Assembly (NCBI RefSeq): GCF_050320075.1
Contig: NZ_CP190018.1
Length of the DNA: 64,000 bases
Source of the DNA: Escherichia coli
Lineage (GTDB): Bacteria > Pseudomonadota > Gammaproteobacteria > Enterobacterales > Enterobacteriaceae
Strand: one strand, 5' to 3'
Within the stretch, counting starts at the first letter, position 1. Each line of letters begins with the position of its first letter. The position numbers and the translations under genes were made by a program. Below the pieces are notes generated by a model. It saw only the letters and a program-made list of their open reading frames with translations. It ran no database searches and had not been told where the DNA came from. Positions 7,901 to 63,696 of the stretch are shown one piece after another.

Positions 7901-7929
7901 GTCAGGGCAAGCCGGGTAATGACTCCAAC

Positions 7930-8433
7930 TTACTGATAGTGTTTTATGTTCAGATAATGCCCGATGACTTTGTCATGCAGCTCCACCGATTTTGAGAACG
8001 ACAGTGACTTCCGTCCCAGCCTTGCCAGATGTTGTCTCAGATTCAGGTTATGTCGCTCAATGCGCTGAGTGTAACGCTTGCTGATTACGTGCAGCTTTCC
8101 CTTCAGGCGGGATTCATACAGCGGCCAGCCATCCGTCATCCATACCACGACCTCAAAGGCCGACAGCAGGCTCAGAAGACGCTCCAGTGTGGCCAGAGTG
8201 CGTTCACCGAAGACGTGCGCCACAACCGTCCTCCGTATCCTGTCATACGCGTAAAACAGCCAGCGCTGACGTGATTTAGCACCGACGTAGCCCCACTGTT
8301 CGTCCATTTCAGCGCAGACAATCACATCACTGCCCGGCTGTATGCGCGAGGTTACCGACTGCGGCCTGAGTTTTTTAAGTGACGTAAAATCGTGTTGAGG
8401 CCAACGCCCATAATGCGGGCGGTTGCCCGGCAT
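7930..8433 (-). CDS. insB: IS1 InsB (transposase C-terminal part, made as InsAB' by frameshift)
   Basis: 167 aa ORF in the -1 frame overlapping the insA 3' end; matches IS1 InsB. Confidence 0.92.
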
Positions 8434-8627
8434 CCAACACCATTCATGGCCATATCAATGATTTTCTGGTGTGTACCGGGTTGAGAAGCGGTGTAAGTGA
8501 ACTGCAGTTGCCATGTTTTACGGCAGTGAGAGCAGAGATAGCGCTGATGTCCGGCAGTACTTTTACCGTTACGCACCACGCCTTCAGTAGCTGAGCAGGA
8601 GGGACAACTGATGGAGATGGAAGCCAC
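8352..8627 (-). CDS. insA: IS1 InsA
   Basis: 91 aa [43 protein letters not shown]...; zinc-finger/HTH protein of IS1. Confidence 0.92.
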
Positions 8628-8655
8628 GGGAGCACCTCAAAAACACCATCATACA

Positions 8656-9114
8656 CTAAATCAGTAAGTTGGCACCATTACCGGTATTTGCGATAAGATG
8701 TTGACAGAGGATAAATTCATAACTAACAGTTAATGTTTCTGTATCCAGTTGATTTTCAATGATCTGATGATGAATAGCCGATAAAAAAGCGCCTCTTAGT
8801 TGTATATAATAATACTTTCCCCATCTACCAAATCTATTTATTCGATAGAAGTCAAATTCCATAAATAATTGTTCATTATTGTTAATGGAATTAATAAATA
8901 ATGGAGTGCTTTTATCAATTAATTTACAAAATGTTATACCATGAAACTGTGAACCAAGCCCCGTATTAGTAATACTATTTAAGAATGAGAATGTAAATAT
9001 TTCATCCTCATGCCCGCTCTGCCAGCGATTACCTGTAGACTCAGAAGTCCCACAACCTGCGGAGATGCTTCCTTGTTGTTCTCCCGTTACTGTCAGGTAA
9101 ACAATATTACTCAT
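8656..9114 (-). pseudogene. yhhZ: Hcp-family (type VI secretion tube protein-like) gene truncated by IS1; the last 9 codons and the stop lie inside IS1
   Basis: 152 aa ORF MSNIVYLTVTGEQQGSISAGC...HEDEIFTFSFLNSITNTG...ITFCKLIDKSTPLF has Hcp-type motifs; the reading frame crosses the IS1 boundary at 8682 and stops at 8656; AT-rich. The yhhZ symbol is by position, from memory. Confidence 0.65.
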
Positions 9115-9960: not shown

Positions 9961-10050
9961 GCGATCAGGAAGACCCTCGCGGAGAACCTGAAAGCACGAC
10001 ATTGCTCACATTGCTTCCAGTATTACTTAGCCAGCCGGGTGCTGGCTTTT
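9961..10050 (+). ncRNA. ryhB: Fur-repressed small RNA RyhB
   Basis: Sequence gcgatcaggaagaccctcgcggagaacctgaaagcacgacattgctcacattgcttccagtattacttagccagccgggtgctggctttt matches RyhB as I recall it, ending in a terminator hairpin gccagccgggtgctggc plus T-run; sits between divergent yhhY and yhhX as in K-12. Confidence 0.9.
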
Positions 10051-10172
10051 TTTTTGATCTTTCGTTTTCAATTTATCCACGGGAAGTGCTTGTGTTCGTT
10101 ATGCGCACTCCAGTAGGAACCACGTCCGCTTTGCGCTAAGGTGTAAATAATCACCTTAAAAAGGACGAAATC

Positions 10173-13916: not shown

Positions 13917-15257
13917 GTGACTACATTAACGCTTGTTTTAACAGCAGTAGGGTCTGTTTTACTGCTGCTGTTTTTAGTCATGAAGGCGCGTATGCACGCT
14001 TTCCTGGCTTTGATGGTGGTGTCCATGGGGGCTGGCCTTTTTTCCGGTATGCCGCTCGATAAAATCGCAGCGACGATGGAAAAAGGGATGGGAGGCACCC
14101 TCGGCTTCCTGGCGGTGGTTGTCGCCCTGGGAGCTATGTTTGGCAAGATCTTACATGAAACCGGCGCAGTCGATCAGATTGCCGTCAAAATGCTCAAATC
14201 CTTCGGTCACAGCCGCGCGCATTATGCCATCGGCCTTGCGGGGCTGGTCTGTGCGCTACCGCTGTTCTTTGAAGTGGCGATTGTTCTGCTGATTAGCGTT
14301 GCTTTCTCAATGGCGCGCCACACCGGTACGAACCTGGTGAAGCTGGTAATCCCATTATTCGCAGGCGTGGCGGCCGCGGCTGCGTTCCTGGTGCCTGGAC
14401 CAGCGCCAATGCTGCTGGCATCGCAGATGAATGCCGACTTTGGCTGGATGATCCTGATTGGCCTGTGTGCGGCAATTCCGGGAATGATTATTGCCGGGCC
14501 GCTGTGGGGTAATTTCATCAGCCGCTACGTGGAGCTGCATATTCCTGACGACATCAGCGAACCACATCTCGGCGAAGGCAAAATGCCATCTTTCGGATTC
14601 AGCCTGTCGCTGATCCTGTTGCCGCTGGTGCTGGTAGGGCTGAAAACCATTGCCGCGCGTTTTGTGCCAGAAGGCTCTACCGCTTACGAATGGTTCGAGT
14701 TTATTGGTCATCCGTTTACCGCGATTCTGGTTGCTTGTCTGGTGGCGATTTATGGCCTGGCAATGCGTCAGGGCATGCCAAAAGACAAAGTGATGGAGAT
14801 TTGCGGTCACGCGCTGCAACCGGCGGGGATCATTCTGCTGGTGATTGGTGCAGGCGGCGTGTTCAAACAGGTGCTGGTTGACTCTGGCGTAGGTCCGGCA
14901 CTGGGCGAAGCGTTAACCGGCATGGGCCTGCCGATTGCCATCACCTGCTTCGTGCTGGCAGCTGCAGTGCGCATCATTCAGGGTTCTGCCACCGTTGCCT
15001 GTTTAACGGCGGTGGGACTGGTGATGCCGGTTATTGAACAACTGAACTACTCCGGTGCGCAAATGGCGGCGCTGTCGATTTGTATCGCCGGTGGTTCGAT
15101 TGTTGTCAGCCACGTTAACGACGCCGGTTTCTGGTTGTTCGGTAAATTTACCGGCGCGACCGAAGCCGAAACGCTGAAAACCTGGACCATGATGGAAACC
15201 ATACTCGGCACTGTTGGTGCCATCGTTGGGATGATTGCGTTCCAGCTGTTGAGTTAA
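13917..15257 (+). CDS. gntU: low-affinity gluconate:H+ symporter
   Basis: 446 aa from GTG 13917 (MTTLTLVLTAVGSVLLLLF...); GntP-family membrane protein; intact in this sequence. Confidence 0.92.
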   Translation: MTTLTLVLTAVGSVLLLLFLVMKARMHAFLALMVVSMGAGLFSGMPLDKIAATMEKGMGGTLGFLAVVVALGAMFGKILHETGAVDQIAVKMLKSFGHSRAHYAIGLAGLVCALPLFFEVAIVLLISVAFSMARHTGTNLVKLVIPLFAGVAAAAAFLVPGPAPMLLASQMNADFGWMILIGLCAAIPGMIIAGPLWGNFISRYVELHIPDDISEPHLGEGKMPSFGFSLSLILLPLVLVGLKTIAARFVPEGSTAYEWFEFIGHPFTAILVACLVAIYGLAMRQGMPKDKVMEICGHALQPAGIILLVIGAGGVFKQVLVDSGVGPALGEALTGMGLPIAITCFVLAAAVRIIQGSATVACLTAVGLVMPVIEQLNYSGAQMAALSICIAGGSIVVSHVNDAGFWLFGKFTGATEAETLKTWTMMETILGTVGAIVGMIAFQLLS

Positions 15258-15268
15258 TTACTGCGACA

Positions 15269-15296
15269 AATTACTGCGAGCTTGCTCGCAGTAATT
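15269..15296. promoter_or_regulatory. perfect 13-bp-arm palindrome at the gntU / insertion junction (terminator or operator)
   Basis: aattactgcgagc-tt-gctcgcagtaatt starts 12 nt after the gntU stop; preceded by a direct half-repeat ttactgcgac. Confidence 0.4.
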
Positions 15297-15396
15297 CATT
15301 TCTCTTATCTCCTCTCTTCATCTTTTTGATCTCTCTCGCAAATTTACCTGCTAATAATCCGTTCTAATCACTGCCTAAAGATCGCAGGAGATAAAG

Positions 15397-17493
15397 ATGG
15401 AAAAGCACGGAGCTGAATTGCTTTTACAGCGGATGTTAGGAAATACCACCGCTACTTTCAGGGAAGGGCAATGGGAAGCCATAGATGCAGTGGTTAATCA
15501 GCGGCGAAAACTGCTGGTTGTACAGCGCACCGGCTGGGGGAAAAGTGCCGTGTACTTCATCGCCAGTAAAATCTTCCGCGATCGCGGCGCTGGCCCGACA
15601 ATTATCATCTCTCCTTTGCTTGCCCTGATGCGTAACCAGGTTGCCGCCGCTGAACGGTTAGGTATTACGGCTGAAACGTTGAATTCTACAAACAGGGAAG
15701 AATGGCAGCGCATTAGCGATAAGTTGCTGCAAGGTGAGGTCGATTGCTTGCTGGTTTCCCCGGAACGTTTGGCAAACCAGGACTTTATCGAAACGGTTTT
15801 ATATCCTATAGCCGATCGTATTGGCTTGCTTGTGGTCGACGAGGCGCACTGCATCTCTGATTGGGGCCACGATTTTCGCCCGGATTACCGACGTATATTA
15901 GATATTTTGCGCCAACTGCCTGCGAATACCCCTGTTCTGGGTACAACCGCGACAGCGAATAACCGTGTTGTTGAGGATATCCGTCAGCAATTGGGTGACA
16001 TTGTGATTCAGCGTGGAACGCTGGCTCGCGAAAGTTTGGCGCTTGATGCCTTAGTCTTAGGAGAACAGTCATCCCGTCTGGCATGGTTAGCAACGGTTAT
16101 CCCTCAGTTTTCCAAATCGGGAATTGTTTATACCCTGACGACTCGCGATGCTGAACTTGTCGCCGAGTGGTTAAGGAAAAATGGTATCAGTGCATTTGCT
16201 TACTACAGCGGCGTGACTTGTGAAGGCGCGGAAGATTCTAATACTGCCAGGGAATATCTGGAGCAGGCACTGCTGGCAAATAAAATCAAAGTGCTGGTCG
16301 CGACGACGGCATTAGGTATGGGGTTTGATAAACCTGATTTAGGTTTCGTCATTCATTATCAGATGCCGGGGTCTATTGTCGGTTACTACCAACAGGTGGG
16401 GCGTGCCGGGCGTGCTATAGATTCCGCAGTTGGCATATTGCTTTGTGGTGGTGAAGACCGCGCTATTCATCAATTCTTCCGTGAAAGCGCCTTTCCTGCG
16501 GAGGCGCAAATTCATGAAATACTCAACGTACTTAGCGAGAATGACGGTCTTACCCTACGAGGCATTGAACAACGGACGAATCTTCGTTATGGGCAAATAG
16601 AAAAAGCACTGAAATTATTGGTAGCGGAAAATCCATCGCCTGTGGTGTATACCGAGAAATTATGGCGCAGAACTATCGTCAGTTTTTCTCCTGATCATGA
16701 ACGAATTAACCATTTGATGAATCAGAGAAAAAGTGAACTGGCAGACGTTGAAAGCTATATCACGACCAAGGAGTGCAAAATGCAATTTCTGCGCCGTGCA
16801 CTCGATGAGCCAAGTGCCGAACGTTGTGGTAAATGTAGCAGTTGTCTTCAGCATCCGTTATTGTCGCCCGACATTGATAGCGGCTTACTCCATGCGGCAA
16901 ATTTATTTATTAAACACGCTGACCTGCCGTTAAATCTCAATAAACAGGTGGCAGCTGGGGCTTTTACGCAATACGGATTTAAAGGGAACTTGCCTGCGGG
17001 TTTACAAGGATCTACGGGGCGAATCCTTTCTCGTTGGGGAGATTCCGGGTGGGGAAAGCAGGTAGCACAGGAGAAAAAAACGGGGCGCTTAAGTGATGAG
17101 CTGGTAGAAGCATGTGCGGAAATGGTTCGCCAACGCTGGAATCCGCATCCTGAACCAACCTGGGTATGCTGCGTTCCTTCATTAAGGCACCTCGACCTGG
17201 TTCCTGATTTTGCCCGGCGACTGGCGGCGAAACTTGGCTTACCTTTTATTGATGCCATTGAAAAAGTCGTGGACAATCCACCGCAGAAAATGCAGCAAAA
17301 CCGTTTTCACCAGTGTCAAAATCTCGACGGGGCGTTTGTGATTACCCCTCCTTTGATGCCAGGTCCGGCGTTGCTGGTTGACGATATCGTGGATTCTGCA
17401 TGGACGCTGACAGTTCTGACAGCACTGTTACGCCAGGCAGGTTGCCCGACGGTTTATCCTCTTGCCCTTGCTTCTACCTCGGTAAAAAATTGA
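15397..17493 (+). CDS. RecQ-family DEAH helicase with C-terminal CxxC and phosphoribosyltransferase-like domain (PsyrT/RqlH-like candidate toxin or effector)
   Basis: 698 aa; Walker A QRTGWGKSAV, DEAH box VVDEAHCISDWGHDFRPDYRR, helicase-C motif YQQVGRAGR, then CGKCSSC and a PRTase-type nucleotide loop LLVDDIVDSAWT near the C-terminus; SD gcaggag upstream of the ATG. Confidence 0.85.
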   Translation: MEKHGAELLLQRMLGNTTATFREGQWEAIDAVVNQRRKLLVVQRTGWGKSAVYFIASKIFRDRGAGPTIIISPLLALMRNQVAAAERLGITAETLNSTNREEWQRISDKLLQGEVDCLLVSPERLANQDFIETVLYPIADRIGLLVVDEAHCISDWGHDFRPDYRRILDILRQLPANTPVLGTTATANNRVVEDIRQQLGDIVIQRGTLARESLALDALVLGEQSSRLAWLATVIPQFSKSGIVYTLTTRDAELVAEWLRKNGISAFAYYSGVTCEGAEDSNTAREYLEQALLANKIKVLVATTALGMGFDKPDLGFVIHYQMPGSIVGYYQQVGRAGRAIDSAVGILLCGGEDRAIHQFFRESAFPAEAQIHEILNVLSENDGLTLRGIEQRTNLRYGQIEKALKLLVAENPSPVVYTEKLWRRTIVSFSPDHERINHLMNQRKSELADVESYITTKECKMQFLRRALDEPSAERCGKCSSCLQHPLLSPDIDSGLLHAANLFIKHADLPLNLNKQVAAGAFTQYGFKGNLPAGLQGSTGRILSRWGDSGWGKQVAQEKKTGRLSDELVEACAEMVRQRWNPHPEPTWVCCVPSLRHLDLVPDFARRLAAKLGLPFIDAIEKVVDNPPQKMQQNRFHQCQNLDGAFVITPPLMPGPALLVDDIVDSAWTLTVLTALLRQAGCPTVYPLALASTSVKN

Positions 17494-18695
17494 TGAATCT
17501 TTCAGCCAATGCACAAGCGACTCTCCTGCTAACCAGCGATTTTTCTCGCGCGGCGGCGAGTGAGTATAAACCTCTTAGTAATAGTGAATGGGGGAAGTTT
17601 GCATTATGGCTGAAGCACCAACGTATCAGTCCCGCCGATCTTCTGGTGCCGCAACCGCAAGAGAAACTTACAGGCTGGAGCGATCCGCGTATTTCTCAGG
17701 AGCGTATTCTTGGCTTGCTGGCGCGTGGTCATAGTCTGGCGTTGGCGGTAGATAAGTGGCAACGCGCCGGTTTATGGATCTTAACCCGCGGAGATGCCGA
17801 TTATCCCGTTCGCTTGAAAAACCGATTGCGAACGGATGCACCTCCCGTTTTATTTGGCTGCGGGAATAAAGCATTACTGCAAGCGGAAGGTATGGCGATT
17901 GTTGGCTCGCGAGATGCTCCGACTGCCGATTTGCGCTATACCCAACAACTGGCAGCGAAACTGGCCCAACAGGGGATTTGCGTTATCTCTGGTGGTGCGC
18001 GAGGTATTGATGAATGTGCAATAGCGTCGGCGCTGGAGGCCGGAGGAACTGCCGTTGGCGTATTAGCTGATAGCTTGTTAAAAACGAGCACGTTAGTGAA
18101 ATGGCGTGAAGGGCTTATAGCAGGCAACCTGGTGTTGATTTCACCGTTTTACCCAGAGGTACGTTTCACCGTCGGCAATGCGATGGCGCGGAATAAATAT
18201 ATTTATTGCCTTGCTGAAAGCGCAATGGTTGTACGTGCGGGAATGACCGGTGGAACGATAACCGGAGCGATGGAGGCGTTAAAACATCAGTGGCTGCCTG
18301 TTCTGGTTAAACCAAATCAGGATGTGCAATCAGCCAATTCACGATTAGTAGAAAATGGGGCGTCATGGAGTGCTGAACAGGCTGAGAATGTGACGATCAG
18401 ACTGCCAGACGTTCCTGGGCTGATGTATGACAGAGCACTCCGTAACGCTCAACCAGAATTGTTTTCGCTGCACGAAGATGACGCAAATTACGCAGTGATG
18501 CCCTCGCATACCCCTGTCGATTTTTATCAACTTTTTGTGGCGGAACTGGCGATCCTTGCAAAGGAATCGATAAGTATTGAAAGGCTGGCGTCTTGTACTG
18601 GTTTAACCATCGAACAAATTAGTATGTGGCTGAACCGCGCAGAAGAAGAGGGAAGGGTTATCCGATTGGGCGAAGGTCATTATCAGTTCAGGTAA
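17493..18695 (+). CDS. DprA/Smf-like Rossmann-fold protein (PsyrA/RqlI-like candidate antitoxin or partner)
   Basis: 400 aa from ATG 17493 (MNLSANAQATLLL...); DprA signature VISGGARGIDECAIASALEAGGTAVGVLADSL and NAMARNKYIYCLAESAMVV; the ATG overlaps the helicase TGA by one nt. Confidence 0.8.
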   Translation: MNLSANAQATLLLTSDFSRAAASEYKPLSNSEWGKFALWLKHQRISPADLLVPQPQEKLTGWSDPRISQERILGLLARGHSLALAVDKWQRAGLWILTRGDADYPVRLKNRLRTDAPPVLFGCGNKALLQAEGMAIVGSRDAPTADLRYTQQLAAKLAQQGICVISGGARGIDECAIASALEAGGTAVGVLADSLLKTSTLVKWREGLIAGNLVLISPFYPEVRFTVGNAMARNKYIYCLAESAMVVRAGMTGGTITGAMEALKHQWLPVLVKPNQDVQSANSRLVENGASWSAEQAENVTIRLPDVPGLMYDRALRNAQPELFSLHEDDANYAVMPSHTPVDFYQLFVAELAILAKESISIERLASCTGLTIEQISMWLNRAEEEGRVIRLGEGHYQFR

Positions 18696-18698
18696 TAA

Positions 18699-18734
18699 AA
18701 CAGGTGCCGCCTCTGGTTGTGTGCAGCACCTGTT
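18699..18734. terminator. bidirectional hairpin between the DprA-like gene and convergent yhgN
   Basis: aacaggtgc ...18-nt loop... gcacctgtt, flanked by A-run and T-run, placed between the two convergent stop codons. Confidence 0.45.
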
Positions 18735-18740
18735 TGAACC

Positions 18741-19334
18741 TTACCCCTTCATCCACATTCGAATGCCGTCGAGGAACATCTGGGTTGCCATCATCACCAG
18801 AATCAATCCCATCAGGCGTTCAAGTGCGTTCACCCCTTTCTCGCCCAGCAGACGTAAAAATAGCGAAGACTGTAGCAGGATGACAAAGGTGCCACCCCAG
18901 GCCAGCAGCAGAGCAATTACCAAATGTCCCATCTGATTCGGGTACTGATGAGACAACAACATCAGCGTGGCGAGAATAGTCGGCCCGGCGACTAACGGAA
19001 TTGCCAACGGCACGATAAACGGCTCTTCACCTGCCGGAAGCCCGCTGCTATTTCCTGAAGCACTGGGGAAAATCATCTTAATGGCGATCAGAAACAGAAT
19101 GATGCCGCCAGAAATGGAGACGGTTTCTGCCCGCAGGCTAAGAAATGCCAGAATTTTCTCACCCGCAAACAGGAACACCAGCATCACCAGGAGAGCAATA
19201 AGCAACTCTCGCACCATGATTGCCCGCCGTCTTTTCGGTTCAGTATGTTTCAGTACGGACATGAAAATAGGTAGGTTTCCGAGCGGATCCATAATCAGGA
19301 TCAATAAAACTGCTGCAGAAATGATTTCATTCAT
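18741..19334 (-). CDS. yhgN: MarC-family inner membrane protein
   Basis: 197 aa hydrophobic ORF MNEIISAAVLLILIMDPLGNLPIF...; length matches YhgN. Confidence 0.9.
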   Translation of the reverse strand: MNEIISAAVLLILIMDPLGNLPIFMSVLKHTEPKRRRAIMVRELLIALLVMLVFLFAGEKILAFLSLRAETVSISGGIILFLIAIKMIFPSASGNSSGLPAGEEPFIVPLAIPLVAGPTILATLMLLSHQYPNQMGHLVIALLLAWGGTFVILLQSSLFLRLLGEKGVNALERLMGLILVMMATQMFLDGIRMWMKG

Positions 19335-30386: not shown

Positions 30387-31904
30387 ATGGAAAGAATAAT
30401 GCAAAACGGAAAATGGATTTTGACCTCGCTGGTAATGACTTTTTTTGGCATCCCCATACTGGCGCAATTTTTGGCAGCGGTTGTTGCCATGCTGGGGGCC
30501 GGGCTTGCCGCTATTCTTGAGTTTTGCAATTTACTCTTTACACCAACAATTTATCTTCTACTCAACGTCTTTATGCTGACGCTGGGCGCATTACTGCTAT
30601 TTTTCTCTGGGCGAGTGTGGGCGGGCGATAGCGCACCAGAAAACAGAGAAATAGCCGCCTGGCGACAATGTCTTTTTTTAGTTCCCGCTTTATTAACCCT
30701 GGTTGGCTGGATAATCACGCTACATCTGGCAGATTATCAATTTCGCCAGATGGGAGCCGGTTGGTTGGCAAACCTTATGCTTCCCTGGTTGGGCGTTTTT
30801 ACAGTCTCATTCGTCGGTGGTGAGTACTGGTGGATAGTCATTATTCCCGTTGGCGCGCATATCAGTTTTTCACTGGGATACGGCTGGCCGACCAGACACC
30901 CTTTAACCGGCACCTCCGGTCTACGTTGCCGTAATTTACTTCTGTTCATTCTTCTCTTACTGGGTATTGTCGCTGGTTATCAGGCTTATTTATATAAACA
31001 GCTTAATCCCGGCGTCGGTGTGCGTGAAAATATTGATACCTGGGCCTGGCGACCCGATAAACTTAATAATCAACTGACGCCACTGCGTGGTAAACCACAA
31101 ATTCAATTTACGCAAAACTGGCCGCGACTCGATGGCGCTACGGCGGCGTACCCCATTTATGCCTCTGCATTTTATGCATTAAGTGTAATACCAGAGGATT
31201 TTCACGTTTGGGATTATCTGGATAACTCTCGTACGCAAGAAGCATATAACAAAATCGTTAACGGTGATGCCGATATTATTTTCGTGGCGCAACCTTCCGA
31301 TGGGCAAAAAAAACGCGCTGAGAAATCGGGCGTCACTTTGCTGTACACGCCATTTGCCCGTGAAGCGTTTGTTTTCATCGTCAATGCGGATAATCCGGTT
31401 AATTCCCTGACTGAACAACAAGTGCGTGACATTTTTAGTGGCGCAATTACCAACTGGCGCACGGTTGGCGGTAACGATCAGGAGATCCAGACCTGGCAAC
31501 GCCCGGAAGACTCTGGCAGCCAGACAGTGATGCAATCGCAGGTCATGAAAAATGTCCGCATGATCTCGCCGCAGGAAACCGAAGTGGCAAGCATGATGGA
31601 GGGAATGATTAAAGTCGTTGCCGAATACCGTAATACAAACAACGCAATAGGCTACACCTTCCGCTATTACGCAACACAAATGAATGCCGATAAAAATATA
31701 AAACTGCTAGCGATTAACGGTATTGCACCGACTGCAGAAAATATTCGCAATGGCAAATATCCCTATGTCGTCGATGCATTTATGGTAACGCGGGACAATA
31801 TGACGTCAGAAACACAAAAACTGGTTGAATGGTTTTTAACGCCGCAGGGGCAGAGTCTGGTGGAAGATGTGGGCTATGTGCCGCTGTATCCAACAATGAA
31901 ATAA
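30387..31904 (+). CDS. membrane protein with N-terminal multi-TM domain fused to a periplasmic PstS-like (PBP-like_2) binding domain
   Basis: 505 aa; first ~190 aa hydrophobic; C-terminal domain has the PstS-type motif NPVNSLTEQQVRDIFSGAITNWRTVGG and QRPEDSGSQTVM; tataat -10 at 30364-30369; alternative start ATG 30399. Confidence 0.8.
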   Translation: MERIMQNGKWILTSLVMTFFGIPILAQFLAAVVAMLGAGLAAILEFCNLLFTPTIYLLLNVFMLTLGALLLFFSGRVWAGDSAPENREIAAWRQCLFLVPALLTLVGWIITLHLADYQFRQMGAGWLANLMLPWLGVFTVSFVGGEYWWIVIIPVGAHISFSLGYGWPTRHPLTGTSGLRCRNLLLFILLLLGIVAGYQAYLYKQLNPGVGVRENIDTWAWRPDKLNNQLTPLRGKPQIQFTQNWPRLDGATAAYPIYASAFYALSVIPEDFHVWDYLDNSRTQEAYNKIVNGDADIIFVAQPSDGQKKRAEKSGVTLLYTPFAREAFVFIVNADNPVNSLTEQQVRDIFSGAITNWRTVGGNDQEIQTWQRPEDSGSQTVMQSQVMKNVRMISPQETEVASMMEGMIKVVAEYRNTNNAIGYTFRYYATQMNADKNIKLLAINGIAPTAENIRNGKYPYVVDAFMVTRDNMTSETQKLVEWFLTPQGQSLVEDVGYVPLYPTMK

Positions 31905-31929
31905 CGCTCGAGAGAAAGGAATCAGCGCA

Positions 31930-32922
31930 ATGAATAAATTCACCTGTGTTTTACTATTAGGTACGGCGCTACTGGCGGGATGTGTCGACCGGGAAGGGTA
32001 CTATAACAGCGTCAGGGAAGAAGACAGCCATGGACTGACGTCTCTGCGGGGGCAACCTGAATTACGTTACAACGATGATTGGTCAAGATGGCCGAGAGTG
32101 TACGGCGCTACAGCCTTATACCCGCTGTATGCCTCCGCGTATTATGAATTAGTACCCGAGCCAAAAGATAAGGATCGAACCTCGCTGGCCTGGCAGGCGT
32201 ATGGTTTGCAACAAACCCGAACAGCTGAAGCCTACGATAGTCTGATTAAGGGTACCGCGACGGTTATTTTTGTTGCACAACCGTCGGAAGGACAGAAAAA
32301 ACGTGCAGAAGAAGCAGGTGTTAAACTCAAATATACCGCTTTCGCCCGCGAAGCCTTTGTCTTTATCGTTGATATCAAAAACCCGGTTAATTCACTTAGC
32401 GAACAGCAGGTCAAAGACATTTTTAGCGGTAAAGTGAGTCGCTGGAATAAAGTGGGCGGCGGTGACGAAGGTATAAAAATCTGGCAGCGGCCAGAAGATT
32501 CTGGAAGCCAAACGGTTATGAAGGGACTGGTTATGCAAGATACTCCAATGCTGCCAGCCAAAAAATCCACTGTTATCGATCTTATGGGCGGTTTAATTAC
32601 CGAAGTCGCCGACTACCAAAATACACCATCTTCTATTGGATACACCTTCCACTATTACGTCACACGTATGAATGACAATATGCTCAAAATGCGCAAACAG
32701 ATCAAACTGCTGGCTATAAATGGCGTTGCACCTACAGAGGAAAATATCCGTAACGGCACTTATCCGTACATAATTCATGCTTATATGGTGACGCACGAAA
32801 ACCCTACGCTGGAAACGCAGAAATTCGTCGACTGGTTTTTAAGCCCGCAGGGACAGCAATTGGTAGAGGATGTGGGCTATGTGCCGATTTATGACGCATC
32901 ATCCGAATCATCAGGACAATAA
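31930..32922 (+). CDS. lipoprotein with PstS-like (PBP-like_2) binding domain, paralog of the C-terminal domain of the upstream gene
   Basis: 330 aa; lipobox LLAGC; shares IFVAQPSxGQKKRAE..GV.L.YT.FAREAFVFIV..NPVNSL.EQQV.DIFSG...W..VGG...I..WQRPEDSGSQTVM with the upstream ORF; SD aaagga. Confidence 0.8.
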   Translation: MNKFTCVLLLGTALLAGCVDREGYYNSVREEDSHGLTSLRGQPELRYNDDWSRWPRVYGATALYPLYASAYYELVPEPKDKDRTSLAWQAYGLQQTRTAEAYDSLIKGTATVIFVAQPSEGQKKRAEEAGVKLKYTAFAREAFVFIVDIKNPVNSLSEQQVKDIFSGKVSRWNKVGGGDEGIKIWQRPEDSGSQTVMKGLVMQDTPMLPAKKSTVIDLMGGLITEVADYQNTPSSIGYTFHYYVTRMNDNMLKMRKQIKLLAINGVAPTEENIRNGTYPYIIHAYMVTHENPTLETQKFVDWFLSPQGQQLVEDVGYVPIYDASSESSGQ

Positions 32923-32924
32923 AG

Positions 32925-33525
32925 ATGAATAAAATCAGACTTTATATTCCTCCGTTAATTCTTGGTTTTGTTATTGTGCCGTTGTTGGTGTGGCCGACGG
33001 TGGTTGCGCTGGCTGCTTGTGTTATCACGCTGAGTTTTATGGGAGAAATACTGTTCTCTATCCCGCTCATGTTCAGGCGTATTTCACTTCTGGAATTCCA
33101 ACTTGGGTTATTGGCTGAATATGCACTTTTTTTTTCTGTGCCATGTGTTGCGTTGGTTGGCAATTTTCTTGCAGAGCTCAATCTGAACTGAAAAGCAGAC
33201 TCCATTGTTGGTTGGTATTTGCACCAGTTTATTTCTGGTTGCTCCTGTGGAATATCATTTTCTATGTCGCGCCAGCGCAAATTGCTTTGCTGGAAAATAT
33301 GCGCAATTTCTTTCTGACCATTGTCTGGTTACCCCTGAATTTTTTCAATTTGGGTCTCAGCCGTGGACTGACTTTATCGGTCCGATAAGCGCCCAGCTTG
33401 GTTTTGCATTGGGATATTATTGCCAGTGGCGTAGCAAAAATAGAAGTCAGAGGAAGAAGTGGGGCGAGTGGGTAATGTGTCTGAGTTTTGTTACGTTGGG
33501 TATGATTGCGTGGGCTTTGCGGTAA
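32925..33525 (+). pseudogene. frameshifted membrane-domain gene, paralog of the N-terminal TM domain of the 30387 ORF
   Basis: Three successive overlapping ORFs in frames 0, 2 and 1 (32925-33191, 33143-33388, 33205-33525) each align to consecutive parts of the TM domain of the 505-aa protein (e.g. NMRNFFLTIVWLPLNFFNLG vs QMGAGWLANLMLPWLGVFTVS; PISAQLGFALGY vs PVGAHISFSLGY). Confidence 0.55.
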
Positions 33526-33576: not shown

Positions 33577-33675
33577 TGCCGGATGCTGCGTGAACGCCTT
33601 ATTTTGTCTACAAAATCATGCAAATTCAATATATTGCATAAACCACGTAGGCCTGATAAGCGTAGCGCATCAGGC
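33577..33675. repeat. REP (palindromic unit) elements
   Basis: gccggatgctgcgtgaacgccttat (partial REP) and gtaggcctgataagcgtagcgcatcaggc (canonical REP) followed by a T-run. Confidence 0.65.
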
Positions 33676-51637: not shown

Positions 51638-52354
<717 letters not shown>

Positions 52355-53157: not shown

Positions 53158-53331
53158 TTACTGACTCGCCGCAGCCAACTCTTCTTCTGACACCCCGGTA
53201 AAACGCAGGGTGTCTGCAAGATGGACTCCGGATTACAGCATTCTTTTGGCGATATCCAGGGCTTCCAGGCGTCGATCCAATAAATAACCAATCAGGTAAC
53301 TAATAAGATATTCTCTTTCTGCATCTGTCAT
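53158..53331 (-). pseudogene. degenerate, frameshifted copy of an Rpn-family C-terminal tail immediately 3' of yhgA
   Basis: Minus-strand translation gives MTDAEREYLISYLIGYLLDRRLEALDIAKRML* then, in another frame, SGVHLADTLRFTGVSEEELAAASQ*, which parallels the yhgA C-terminus ...[36 protein letters not shown]. Confidence 0.45.
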
Positions 53332-53348
53332 TAAAACCATCCTTTACG

Positions 53349-54242
53349 TTATTGATGATTTATTTCAGCAAGGTCTTCAACCGTCAGGCTGGTAAATCGC
53401 AGAACGTCCTCAAGAGAGACTCCGGCATCCAGCATGGTTTTGGCAATATTTAGGGCGTTGGTACGTATACCTTTCTGAAACCCCTCCTGCCGCAATCTTT
53501 CCGCAATAGTCATTAAACTCTCCTTGTGTTTCGGTGAACGTTCGGCCACACCGTCGATAAAATCGTTAAAACGTACCGCATCGCCAGTTTGCAGTATGTA
53601 ATTAAACAGCCCTTTGATTTGTCTGTCATTAGCGTATCCACTACTTAATAAGCAGGCCATTTGCTCTACCAGCCCCATCAGGTCGCGTTGACGAATATGT
53701 TTTTGAATTAACTCCAGCAGTGCCATACGTCGGTGCTGCATGATTTCATCATCAGGCATGACGGTGACATCAATCAGCGGAAATGCAGAGGCATAAAGCT
53801 GCCTTGCCAGGTTGGGATCGGCGAAACAATCAAGCCAACACAGCGAATAGGGATAGGGGCTTTCAATACCGTGGTAAAACAACAATGGCACCACCATCGG
53901 CAAGGTTTTGTATCCGGCATCCAGGTGATTTTGCATTGCGGCAATGGCGTAGCGCATCATGCGAAATGCGATCAGTTTGTTTGAGGTGCTTTGATGTTCA
54001 ATCAGACAATAGATGTATCCTGGCCCTTGTTCCGTTTTCACCGACCACAGCACGTCGGAATAGCTTTCACGCAGATCGTCATCAATAAAGCTGCTCGACT
54101 CCAGCTTGAGGGTTTTCATATCACAGAGCGCGTGAATGGGTGCCGGTAAATGAAACGCAAGAAAATCGCGTGCCGTCTCCGGTTGGCGTAAAAAGAGTTT
54201 GAACAGCGCATCGTGTGGGGTGGAACTCTGCTTTTTGCTCAT
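53349..54242 (-). CDS. yhgA: Rpn-family recombination-promoting nuclease (PD-(D/E)XK, transposase_31-like)
   Basis: 297 aa; [28 protein letters not shown]...; matches YhgA/RpnA by sequence and position next to bioH. Confidence 0.88.
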
Positions 54243-62907: not shown

Positions 62908-63204
62908 TTAGATTGTTTTCAATTGATTGATAATGAAAGGATTCGCTTGCAAAAGCAGGAGCAATTTTCGGGGTGCTCCGGTAGGTTGACGGCGTTTGGT
63001 TTCCCAGCTTTTGACCAGGTCATAACTTACCCCTACGGCGACAGCAAAATCTTGCTGACGTAAACCCGTTGCTTCACGGATCGCTTTTACATCGATTTCG
63101 CTAAAAGTATGGACGTGCTCTGGTTCAGGCGCTTCTTCACCCTTTTCGATGCGTACCATTTCTTCTGCGCTGGCAAGAAGATCAGCAAATAATTCGTCTT
63201 TCAT
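62908..63204 (-). CDS. XRE-family HTH antitoxin (HigA-like)
   Basis: 98 aa; HTH region IREATGLRQQDFAVAVGVSYDLVKSWETKRRQPTG; lies 58 bp downstream of the toxin-like ORF on the same strand. Confidence 0.75.
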   Translation of the reverse strand: MKDELFADLLASAEEMVRIEKGEEAPEPEHVHTFSEIDVKAIREATGLRQQDFAVAVGVSYDLVKSWETKRRQPTGAPRKLLLLLQANPFIINQLKTI

Positions 63205-63262
63205 CTGTTTTCAATGCCTCCGTTGGCATTTCGGCCATGGTGGAATTTGTGGAGCTTCAACA

Positions 63263-63580
63263 TTAAAGCAGCTTCTCGGACAATAGTTTCAATGCCTTTC
63301 TTTGTTCTTCTGTTAAATCATCCTGTTCATTTTTAGGATAAATCAACGCCAGATAAATTCGGCCATTGCGTGTTACGTTGTAATAAATTATCCGAATGCC
63401 ACCCCGTTTCCCCATTCCAGAACGGTTCCAGCGAATTTTTCTAAAACTGCCTGTGCCTGCGATAATGTCACCGGCAGTGGGATCTTGAATGAGTAGTTCC
63501 TGAAAAGCCCGGAACTCATCATCAGGTAACAATAACTGGCGGCGTTTGCTAAATCCTTGTAGTTCAATAAACGTGAACAT
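63263..63580 (-). CDS. RelE/ParE-superfamily toxin of the Gp49/HigB-like type
   Basis: 105 aa; motif KRGGIRIIYYNVTRNGRIYLALIYPKNEQDDLTEEQ typical of Gp49/HigB-like toxins; toxin-first order. Confidence 0.75.
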   Translation of the reverse strand: MFTFIELQGFSKRRQLLLPDDEFRAFQELLIQDPTAGDIIAGTGSFRKIRWNRSGMGKRGGIRIIYYNVTRNGRIYLALIYPKNEQDDLTEEQRKALKLLSEKLL

Positions 63581-63653
63581 AATGCATCCTGCGGTCTATT
63601 GATAATTATAAGTGTACCGTGTACATATTGGTAGCTAATTAGATATAAAAAAA

Positions 63654-63677
63654 CCCCTTATCCGTTTGGATAAGGGG
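63654..63677 (-). terminator. rho-independent terminator of pck
   Basis: ccccttatcc-gttt-ggataagggg preceded on + by a 7-A run (a U-run on the pck strand), 20 nt after the pck stop. Confidence 0.65.
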
Positions 63678-63696
63678 TCAATGAGATTTCAGCTGA

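What the first reader, a model, noticed from the sequence alone, without database searches (positions are those of the whole stretch)
16800..17495. Helicase C-terminus carries a ComF-like CxxC plus PRTase module, and the partner gene starts on the helicase stop codon
The helicase C-terminal ~220 aa contain CGKCSSC and a PRTase-type loop LLVDDIVDSAWT, the same arrangement as the Cys-rich N-terminus plus PRTase fold of ComF/GntX (a gntX homolog is in this window at 51638-52321). The partner belongs to the DprA family. ComF and DprA are both natural-transformation proteins, so this module looks like DNA-uptake machinery domains recruited to a helicase. The DprA-like ATG (17493) overlaps the helicase TGA (17491-17493) by one nt, implying tight co-translation as in toxin-antitoxin pairs.
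Basis: partly seen in the sequence, partly recalled or inferred. Interest (0 to 1): 0.6.

Follow-up and report, generated by a model that had tools for sequence, protein, structure and literature searches.

The report
Known RqlH-RqlI (PsyrTA) toxin-antitoxin operon
This is the already published rqlH-rqlI (PsyrTA) toxin-antitoxin and anti-phage operon of E. coli: a RecQ-like helicase fused to a ComF-type phosphoribosyltransferase domain, followed by its DprA-like antidote. It is real and well described, not new.

Summary
The 698-aa helicase (15397-17493) contains CGKCSSC and the loop LLVDDIVDSAWT, and the next gene's ATG (17493) shares one base with the helicase TGA.

The pair is the known RqlH/RqlI = PsyrT/PsyrA system. 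PADLOC matches both proteins over their full length (E=0 and 3.5e-200). Residues K49, D148 and D663 match those mutated in ExPEC strain F11.

Published work already covers the main points:
- the domain layout, including a ComF-like C-domain;
- toxicity that depends on the PRTase domain;
- neutralisation by, and binding to, RqlI;
- co-transcription of the two genes;
- the ComF/DprA parallel with competence proteins;
- anti-phage activity.

Small additions from this work:
- RefSeq starts rqlI 93 nt too early. All 119 listed homologue clusters from other organisms start at the 17493 Met.
- All four relatives examined use an ATGA overlap. E. coli's TGATG differs from the Citrobacter junction by one base (GGA there, TGA here).
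- The 3.48-kb island replaces a 56-bp spacer. It is present in 1650 of 5426 complete E. coli genomes, and the site is empty in 3774 others.

Interest is low.

The parts
15258..18740 (.). 3,483-bp rqlHI island. It exactly replaces the 56-bp gntU|yhgN spacer of K-12.
   Evidence: Alignment to K-12 MG1655: similarity stops right after the gntU stop and resumes at the yhgN stop. The island is in 1650 of 5426 complete E. coli genomes and the empty site is in 3774.
15269..15296 (+). Terminator-like hairpin just after gntU, inside island-specific sequence
   Evidence: 12-bp stem found by the terminator scan
15397..17493 (+). rqlH / psyrT: 698-aa RecQ-like helicase-PRTase (toxin); the start codon is preceded by an AGGAG Shine-Dalgarno
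   Evidence: PADLOC PsyrT E=0, residues 3-697. NCBIfam recQ_fam 252.8 bits, above the 219.8 cutoff. SD duplex -7.4 kcal/mol. AF2 model pLDDT 93.2.
15397..16461 (+). SF2 helicase core (residues 1-355), with motif I GWGKS (15532-15546) and DEAH (15838-15849)
   Evidence: Pfam DEAD and Helicase_C. phmmer to RecQ 1OYW E 2e-53. Foldseek to RecQ cores E 1e-29.
16501..16671 (+). RqlH-specific linker (residues 369-425), predicted to fold as three helices plus a beta-hairpin (winged-helix-like)
   Evidence: AF2 secondary structure H369-380, H387-393, H398-410, E416-419, E422-425. Weak Pfam MarR_2 hit, E 0.19. Ordonez 2012 called it a linker with no RecQ counterpart.
16696..16857 (+). RecQ-type zinc-binding subdomain (residues 434-487) with C460, C477, C480, C483.
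   Evidence: The spacing C-x16-C-x2-C-x2-C is identical to E. coli RecQ.
16879..17490 (+). ComF-type PRTase domain (about residues 495-698)
17371..17406 (+). PRPP loop LLVDDIVDSAWT (residues 659-670). D662 and D663 are invariant. D663A abolishes toxicity in the F11 orthologue.
17491..17495 (+). TGATG stop/start overlap between rqlH and rqlI
   Evidence: Read directly. Identical in three other E. coli loci. Relatives have ATGA. No SD upstream.
17493..18695 (+). rqlI / psyrA: 400-aa DprA-like antitoxin
   Evidence: PADLOC PsyrA E 3.5e-200, residues 1-400. All 119 listed non-E. coli homologue clusters start at this Met. Published functional RqlI is 1-400.
17757..18368 (+). DprA/SLOG Rossmann domain of RqlI (residues 89-292)
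   Evidence: Pfam DNA_processg_A E 1.5e-49 and LDcluster4 E 4e-11. PDB DprA and ShosA matches.
18552..18638 (+). Putative C-terminal helix-turn-helix of RqlI; dispensable for antitoxin activity according to the literature
   Evidence: Weak Pfam HTH_26 hit, E 0.37. Russell & Mulvey truncation 1-320 still rescues.
18698..18735 (+). Stable hairpin between the convergent rqlI and yhgN genes; likely terminator
   Evidence: RNA fold -21.7 kcal/mol, z -3.66, 0 of 200 shuffles as stable

Best explanation
The locus is the chromosomal rqlH-rqlI operon, the same system as PsyrTA. It is a two-gene toxin-antitoxin module that also acts as an anti-phage defence system.

RqlH is a RecQ-like 3'-5' DNA helicase made of four parts: an SF2 motor, a family-specific winged-helix-like linker, RecQ's own tetracysteine zinc domain, and a C-terminal ComF-type PRPP-binding phosphoribosyltransferase domain in place of RecQ's HRDC domain. 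RqlI is a DprA-like Rossmann/SLOG protein.

Shown in the literature for orthologues:
- RqlH alone causes SOS induction, filamentation and loss of viability.
- This needs the PRTase DD motif (D663) and the rest of the protein, but not helicase activity.
- RqlI binds RqlH in a PRTase-domain-dependent way and neutralises it.
- The two genes are co-transcribed.
- A PsyrTA system protects against phage.

Inferred here:
- rqlI has no Shine-Dalgarno sequence and its ATG overlaps the rqlH stop, so its translation probably depends on ribosomes terminating on rqlH. That would tie antidote synthesis to toxin synthesis.
- By analogy with ShosTA, phage infection (ssDNA accumulation or host shut-off) would remove RqlI's restraint. 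The PRTase domain would then consume or misuse PRPP, damaging DNA metabolism and aborting the infection.

The PRTase substrate and the trigger remain unknown.
For: - Identity: PADLOC PsyrT E=0 and PsyrA E=3.5e-200, both full length. Pfam DEAD, Helicase_C, RecQ_Zn_bind, Pribosyltran and DNA_processg_A.
- The residue numbering K49/D148/D663 and the lengths (RqlH PRTase 509-690, RqlI 1-400) match ExPEC F11.
- Literature: Ordonez 2012 for domain layout and helicase activity. Russell & Mulvey 2015 for toxicity, D663A, co-IP and RT-PCR operon. Millman 2022 for PsyrTA = RqlHI as a defence system. ShosTA papers for the PRTase/DprA-like mechanism.
- Coupling: TGATG overlap. ATGA overlap in Citrobacter, V. 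cholerae, Marinobacter and a metagenome contig. SD duplex -3.0 kcal/mol, at the background median, against -7.4 for rqlH. No plus-strand promoter-like site inside rqlH.
- Defence context: in V. cholerae and Marinobacter the pair sits inside a type I R-M operon.
Against: - No experiment has been done on this exact strain. The anti-phage activity was shown for a homologue, not for the E. coli allele.
- Russell & Mulvey favoured a cooperative beneficial DNA function and found strain-dependent effects.
- The PRPP loop is non-canonical (D-S-x-W-T where ComFC has T-T-G-T-T and GntX has T-T-G-S-T), so catalysis is unproven.
- ShosA does not bind ShosT whereas RqlI does bind RqlH, so the ShosTA analogy may not carry over.
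- Translational coupling is inferred from sequence only. The promoter scan is insensitive: it also failed to find the rqlH promoter.
Confidence: 0.88

Rival explanations
1. The pair is a cooperative DNA-processing or repair module rather than a poison-antidote or defence pair. RqlH (helicase plus ComFC-like domain) and RqlI (DprA-like) would together mirror the ComFA-ComFC-DprA competence trio. They would handle single-stranded DNA for RecA-dependent recombination or repair, and toxicity would only be a by-product of imbalance.
For: - The closest fold of the C-domain is ComFC, which binds ssDNA and interacts with DprA.
- Russell & Mulvey proposed a cooperative beneficial function and found that rqlI matters for gut and urinary-tract fitness.
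- The island sits at one fixed chromosomal site, shared with Citrobacter, with no mobility genes.
- The ShosA antitoxin works through RecA and ssDNA.
Against: - Deleting rqlH rescues every rqlI defect, and no phenotype of losing both genes is reported in the passages read.
- The system is absent from 70% of E. coli.
- Relatives are embedded in restriction-modification operons next to integrases.
- PsyrTA gave phage protection.
- rqlH is pseudogenised or disrupted by a prophage in some strains, while rqlI stays intact or is still annotated as a complete CDS.
Confidence: 0.1
2. One reading: a whole ComF module (zinc finger plus PRTase) was captured from DNA-uptake machinery and fused to a helicase, so the cysteines belong to the ComF part.
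For: - The PRTase part is ComF-like.
Against: - The cysteine spacing and flanking sequence match RecQ exactly.
- GntX and ComF fingers are CxxC...CxxC, and they do not align with this region in hhalign.
- M. smegmatis RqlH(1-505), which includes the Zn domain but not the ComF part, is a fully active helicase, whereas RqlH(1-465) is insoluble.
- The apparently standalone 240-aa 'Cys + PRTase' proteins look like contig-end truncations; the one checked starts at nt 34 of its contig.
Confidence: 0.02

Closest known systems
RqlH-RqlI of ExPEC strain F11 (Russell & Mulvey 2015, PMC4670107), the same system as PsyrTA (Sberro 2013; Millman 2022)
   Same: The protein lengths, mutated residues (K49, D148, D663), gene order and overlap all match. 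PADLOC gives full-length PsyrT and PsyrA matches. The locus belongs to the same species.
   Different: Nothing substantive; this is an allele of the same operon. RefSeq annotates rqlI 31 codons too long.
Mycobacterium smegmatis RqlH (Ordonez, Unciuleac & Shuman 2012, PMC3378886)
   Same: The domain layout is the same: RecQ-like ATPase, about 90-aa linker, tetracysteine zinc domain, ComF-like PRTase C-domain, and no HRDC domain. It has 3'-5' helicase activity.
   Different: Identity to the F11 protein is about 41%. Mycobacteria and other Gram-positives lack the rqlI partner.
ShosTA
   Different: ShosT carries an N-terminal pyrophosphatase-like domain instead of a helicase. ShosA does not bind ShosT, whereas RqlI does bind RqlH.
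ComFC / GntX (with ComFA and DprA) of natural transformation
   Same: The PRTase fold is closest to ComFC. The PRPP-loop region and the preceding Q..N..AF motif align with GntX. The overall set of parts is the same: a helicase, a ComF-type PRTase and a DprA-family protein.
   Different: There is no ComF zinc ribbon. Profile scores are far below the family cutoffs. The helicase is RecQ-type, not the DEAD-box ComFA. The PRPP loop reads DSxWT rather than TTGxT.
E. coli RecQ
   Same: The SF2 motifs and the zinc-binding C-x16-C-x2-C-x2-C pattern are shared. Foldseek gives E 1e-28 to 1OYW.
   Different: A winged-helix-like insert lies before the Cys cluster. There is no HRDC domain; a PRTase domain takes its place. 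The score is below the recQ equivalog cutoff (296 against 640 bits).

Membership tests
PsyrTA / RqlHI | Toxin consisting of a RecQ-like SF2 helicase with a C-terminal PRTase domain | tested here: met
   PADLOC PsyrT E=0, residues 3-697 against profile 5-687 of 689. Pfam domains. AF2 model with fold searches.
PsyrTA / RqlHI | DprA-like partner encoded immediately downstream on the same strand | tested here: met
   PADLOC PsyrA E 3.5e-200. TGATG overlap.
PsyrTA / RqlHI | RqlH toxicity depends on the PRTase DD motif and is neutralised by RqlI, which binds it | not testable with these tools
   Shown for the F11 orthologue with identical residue numbering. D662 and D663 are present and invariant in the family.
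PsyrTA / RqlHI | Protects against phage | not testable with these tools
   Reported for a PsyrTA system by Millman et al. 2022. Not tested for this allele.
RecQ family helicases | SF2 motifs plus the RecQ tetracysteine zinc-binding subdomain | tested here: met
   GWGKS and DEAH read directly. TIGR00614 recQ_fam 252.8 bits, above the 219.8 cutoff. The four Cys are in register with 1OYW.
RecQ (equivalog, E. coli type) | Full RecQ architecture with an HRDC domain and a score above the equivalog cutoff | tested here: not met
   TIGR01389 296 bits against the 640 cutoff, with no HRDC hit
ComF / GntX family | Type I PRTase fold with a PRPP loop of the ComF kind | tested here: met
ComF / GntX family | N-terminal CxxC...CxxC zinc ribbon belonging to the ComF module | tested here: not met
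   The cysteines are RecQ-type. Residues 484-545, between the Zn cluster and the PRTase core, contain no Cys. There is no alignment to the GntX Cys region.
ComF / GntX family | Score above the family cutoff (TIGR00201 comF / PRK11595 GntX) | tested here: not met
   GntX 16.1 bits against the 304 cutoff; comF is not reported
DprA (canonical Smf/DprA) | DNA_processg_A Rossmann domain | tested here: met
   Pfam E 1.5e-49. PDB DprA hits at E 1e-11.
DprA (canonical Smf/DprA) | Equivalog-level score | tested here: not met
   TIGR00732 101.8 bits against the 191.15 cutoff; PRK10736 79.9 against 495. RqlI is a DprA-like paralogue, not the competence DprA.
ShosTA | ShosT architecture: N-terminal pyrophosphatase-like domain plus PRTase | tested here: not met
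   The N-terminus is a helicase, and no ShosT hit appears in PADLOC

The most novel reading that the evidence does not exclude
The helicase and the ComF-type domain may work as one machine. RqlH would thread single-stranded DNA 3'-5' into its PRPP-binding domain, which would phosphoribosylate (or otherwise chemically alter) DNA bases or ends rather than free nucleobases. RqlI, as a DprA-like ssDNA binder, would gate access. That would make RqlH a DNA-directed phosphoribosyltransferase. It could also shed light on what the unexplained PRPP site of ComFC does in natural transformation.
Probability: 0.1. Interest if true: 0.7.

Novelty: already known. Interest (0 to 1): 0.12.

Why it matters
As a discovery it does not matter, because the system, its domain layout, its toxicity determinants and its defence role are all published.

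It still has some practical value:
- It corrects the idea that the cysteines are a ComF finger.
- It flags a systematic RefSeq start-site error for rqlI in E. coli (431 aa annotated, 400 aa supported).
- It shows that the locus is a strict presence/absence polymorphism at one site, present in about 30% of complete E. coli genomes, including Nissle 1917.

The open questions remain what the PRTase domain acts on and what triggers the system. These apply to the whole PsyrTA/ShosTA/ComFC group.

Tried and rejected
1. Standalone 'Cys cluster + PRTase' proteins of about 240 aa appeared in the representative search. They looked like support for an independent ComF-like module. The one I checked starts at nt 34 of a 1.4-kb contig. 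Many start at a conserved internal Met. I treated them as truncations.

2. The alternative rqlI start at ATG 17400 (RefSeq) is rejected. The 31 extra residues have no counterpart in any of the 119 listed homologue clusters from outside E. coli, and there is no SD there either.

3. A sequence search of PDB with the C-terminal 217 aa gave only insignificant APRT hits (E 0.25). Fold comparison was needed.

4. The full-length model searched against PDB returned only RecQ-family helicases, so a separate C-terminal model was built.

5. I tested the idea that the gntU|yhgN spacer is a multi-cargo defence hotspot. It is rejected: 3774 empty sites plus 1650 rqlHI sites account for all 5424 genomes with a match.

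6. The promoter scan found no plus-strand sigma-70 site anywhere in 15150-18900, not even upstream of rqlH. It is uninformative about the operon promoter.

7. A literature search for a dedicated PsyrTA mechanism paper found none in the held library.

8. No direct repeats or mobility genes were noticed at the island edges when aligning them to K-12; the repeat finder was not run.
Full report
**What is there.** The window is an E. coli chromosomal segment (…gntR-gntK-gntU | island | yhgN-asd-glgB…) that is collinear with K-12 except for a few insertions. Two co-oriented genes lie between gntU and yhgN:
- a 698-aa ORF at 15397-17493;
- a second ORF ending at 18695.

- CGKCSSC is at nt 16825-16845 (C477-C483).
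- LLVDDIVDSAWT is at 17371-17406 (residues 659-670).
- The junction is TGATG, with the helicase TGA at 17491-17493 sharing its A with the ATG at 17493.
- The gntX homologue cited for comparison exists at 51638-52321 on the minus strand.

**Identification.** PADLOC profiles match both proteins end to end: PsyrT (E=0, residues 3-697) and PsyrA (E=3.5e-200, residues 1-400 against profile 1-397 of 398).
- Pfam finds DEAD, Helicase_C, RecQ_Zn_bind (443-484) and a weak Pribosyltran hit (605-683) in the first protein.
- Pfam finds DNA_processg_A (E 1.5e-49) plus SLOG cluster 4 in the second.
- NCBIfam places the helicase in the RecQ family, above the subfamily cutoff but far below the RecQ equivalog cutoff. 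It places the partner below the DprA equivalog cutoff.

PsyrTA is the same system as RqlH-RqlI. The E. coli orthologue was studied in ExPEC strain F11, and the residue numbers used there (K49, D148, D663, PRTase 509-690, RqlI 1-400) fit this sequence exactly.

**What the literature already shows.**
- Ordonez, Unciuleac & Shuman 2012 described RqlH as a RecQ-like ATPase, an RqlH-specific linker of about 90 aa, and a tetracysteine zinc-binding domain homologous to RecQ 362-421. [quoted passage not shown] They showed 3'-5' helicase activity that does not need the C-domain.
- Russell & Mulvey 2015 showed several things. RqlH alone induces SOS, filamentation and loss of viability. Deleting the PRTase domain, or the D663A or DIVD663EVME mutations, abolishes this. 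The helicase-dead mutants K49A and D148A do not abolish it. RqlI neutralises RqlH and co-immunoprecipitates with it only when the PRTase domain is present. RT-PCR shows one transcript. Their Discussion draws the parallel with DprA and with the B. subtilis comF operon (helicase plus PRTase) and H. influenzae ComF.
- Iyer et al. 2017 restate the helicase-PRTase/DprA parallel with ComFA/ComFC.
- Millman et al. 2022 list PsyrTA (RqlHI) among toxin-antitoxin systems that protect against phage.
- The related ShosTA system (PRTase toxin, DprA-like antitoxin) has crystal structures and a model involving PRPP binding, DNA damage, RecA and ssDNA.

**Test of the fold claim.**
- An AlphaFold2 model of the full protein, built from 38 homologues, is confident (pLDDT 93.2, pTM 0.90). 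Its first ~490 residues match RecQ catalytic cores (Foldseek E 1e-28 to 1e-29).
- At sequence level the window's own GntX aligns with RqlH 619-694 (26% identity, E 2e-5). GntX is the best non-RecQ NCBIfam family for the C-terminal part, though far below its cutoff. hhalign gives 94% probability over 72 columns.

The PRTase fold and its ComF-like flavour are confirmed.

**Correction: the cysteines.**
- The four conserved cysteines are C460, C477, C480 and C483, each at least 90% conserved. Their spacing is C-x16-C-x2-C-x2-C.
- phmmer aligns RqlH 444-487 with E. coli RecQ 364-407 with all four cysteines in register. That sub-alignment alone is not significant (1.8 bits).
- Pfam RecQ_Zn_bind and TIGR01389 (positions 354-396) hit the same stretch.
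- GntX carries CxxC...CxxC pairs that do not align with this region.
- Residues 484-545, between the zinc cluster and the PRTase core, contain no cysteine.
- The M. smegmatis fragment 1-505, which includes the zinc domain but lacks the ComF part, is a complete helicase.

The CGKCSSC motif therefore belongs to the helicase, not to a ComF module.

**The junction and the start of rqlI.**
- RefSeq/PGAP annotates the second gene from ATG 17400 (431 aa, 94-nt overlap).
- All 119 listed homologue clusters from other organisms start at the Met encoded at 17493 (MNLS/T..AQATLLLT), and none aligns to the 31 extra residues. The published functional protein is 1-400.
- The overlap is conserved, but its geometry differs. 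Citrobacter, V. cholerae, Marinobacter and a metagenome contig all have ATGA, a four-base overlap. The E. coli TGATG differs from the Citrobacter junction by one base: AAT GGA TGA there, AAT TGA TG here. It is identical in three other E. coli loci.
- rqlH has a strong Shine-Dalgarno (AGGAG, -7.4 kcal/mol, top 5% of positions). The 20 nt before rqlI pair with the anti-SD no better than the background median (-3.0).
- No plus-strand promoter-like site lies inside rqlH, but the scan also missed the operon promoter, so this is weak evidence.

Translational coupling is thus a reasonable inference, not a demonstrated fact.

**Context and distribution.**
- The island (15258-18740, 3,483 bp) replaces the 56-bp K-12 spacer exactly, from the base after the gntU stop to the yhgN stop. 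No repeats or mobility genes were noticed at the edges.
- It brings hairpins at both ends: 15269-15296 and 18698-18735 (-21.7 kcal/mol, z -3.7).
- It is present in 1650 of 5426 complete E. coli genomes, always chromosomal. The empty site is present in 3774. Together these make 5424, so the site is a two-state polymorphism rather than a multi-cargo hotspot.
- Citrobacter carries the pair at the same site.
- In V. cholerae and Marinobacter the pair sits inside a type I restriction-modification operon (hsdM-hsdS-rqlH-rqlI-hsdR). In V. cholerae this is next to an integrase, which fits a defence role.
- Some E. coli have lost the toxin only. In strain 133 rqlH is frameshifted. In SJ7 a prophage is inserted near the rqlH 3' end. 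In both, rqlI is still annotated as a complete CDS.

**Mechanism.** See the best explanation. Toxicity through the PRTase DD motif, neutralisation and binding by RqlI, co-transcription and helicase activity are published facts for orthologues. Translational coupling and the infection-triggered release of the toxin are inferences. The substrate of the PRTase domain and the trigger are unknown. The PRPP loop is atypical: D-S-x-W-T where ComFC and GntX have T-T-G-x-T, and this is conserved across the family.

**Verdict.** The feature is real and correctly observed, but it is an already known system. Interest is low.

Noticed in passing
window 17400-17492; L001 6141-7436: RefSeq/PGAP annotates the DprA-like gene from ATG 17400 (431 aa, 94-nt overlap with the helicase). 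Homologues and the published protein (1-400) support ATG 17493, so the E. coli RefSeq start looks systematically wrong. The 431-aa cluster has 3041 member sequences.
   Followed up: yes
window 16501-16671 (RqlH residues 369-425): The 'RqlH-specific linker' with no RecQ counterpart is predicted with high confidence as three helices plus a beta-hairpin (winged-helix-like). It is inserted before the zinc cluster. There is a weak Pfam MarR_2 hit (E 0.19).
   Followed up: partly
window 17380-17406 (RqlH residues 662-670): The PRPP loop keeps the DD pair but has D-S-x-W-T where ComFC has T-T-G-T-T and GntX has T-T-G-S-T. S667, W669 and T670 are at least 90% conserved in the family. This suggests a non-canonical 5'-phosphate pocket.
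   Followed up: partly
L005 3905-7329 (V. cholerae); L007 3893-7254 (Marinobacter): In these relatives rqlH-rqlI is nested inside a type I R-M operon (hsdM-hsdS-rqlH-rqlI-hsdR). In V. cholerae it lies next to a phage-type integrase.
   Followed up: partly
L003 3905-7206 (Citrobacter werkmanii): Citrobacter carries the pair at the same gntU|yhgN site as E. coli, with an ATGA overlap and a 699-aa helicase.
   Followed up: partly
L012 (E. coli strain 133); L013 (strain SJ7): Toxin-only decay in two strains. In strain 133 rqlH is annotated as frameshifted with an internal stop. In SJ7 a prophage (with a Com-family regulator and DUF genes) is inserted near the 3' end of rqlH. In both, rqlI is still annotated as a complete CDS.
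   Followed up: partly
window 62909-63695: A 787-bp insert absent from K-12 lies between envZ and pck. It carries two small minus-strand genes. One is a 105-aa protein (63263-63580) with no NCBIfam match. The other is a 98-aa NadS-family HTH protein (62908-63204, E 3.9e-21). It looks like a small type II toxin-antitoxin pair.
   Followed up: partly
window 30622-33460: A 2.8-kb segment absent from K-12 lies between glgP and glpD, where K-12 has the remnant yzgL. It encodes two PstS-family substrate-binding-like proteins (505 and 330 aa) and a small membrane ORF.
   Followed up: partly
window 7915-8682: An IS1 copy (93% identical to K-12 IS1E) lies at the yhhZ/yrhA locus. Relative to K-12, about 1.1 kb (the yhhZ 3' end and yrhA fragment 1) is missing on one side and about 0.8 kb (yrhA fragment 2, yrhD, yrhB) on the other.
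   Followed up: no
window 9990-10054 and 33612-33654: Rfam gathering-score hits: RyhB sRNA (83 bits) and ES036/CssrF sRNA (43.6 bits).
   Followed up: no
window 53265-53480, 1860-2033, 1-358: Short segments with no megablast match to the K-12 regions compared. Not examined.
   Followed up: no
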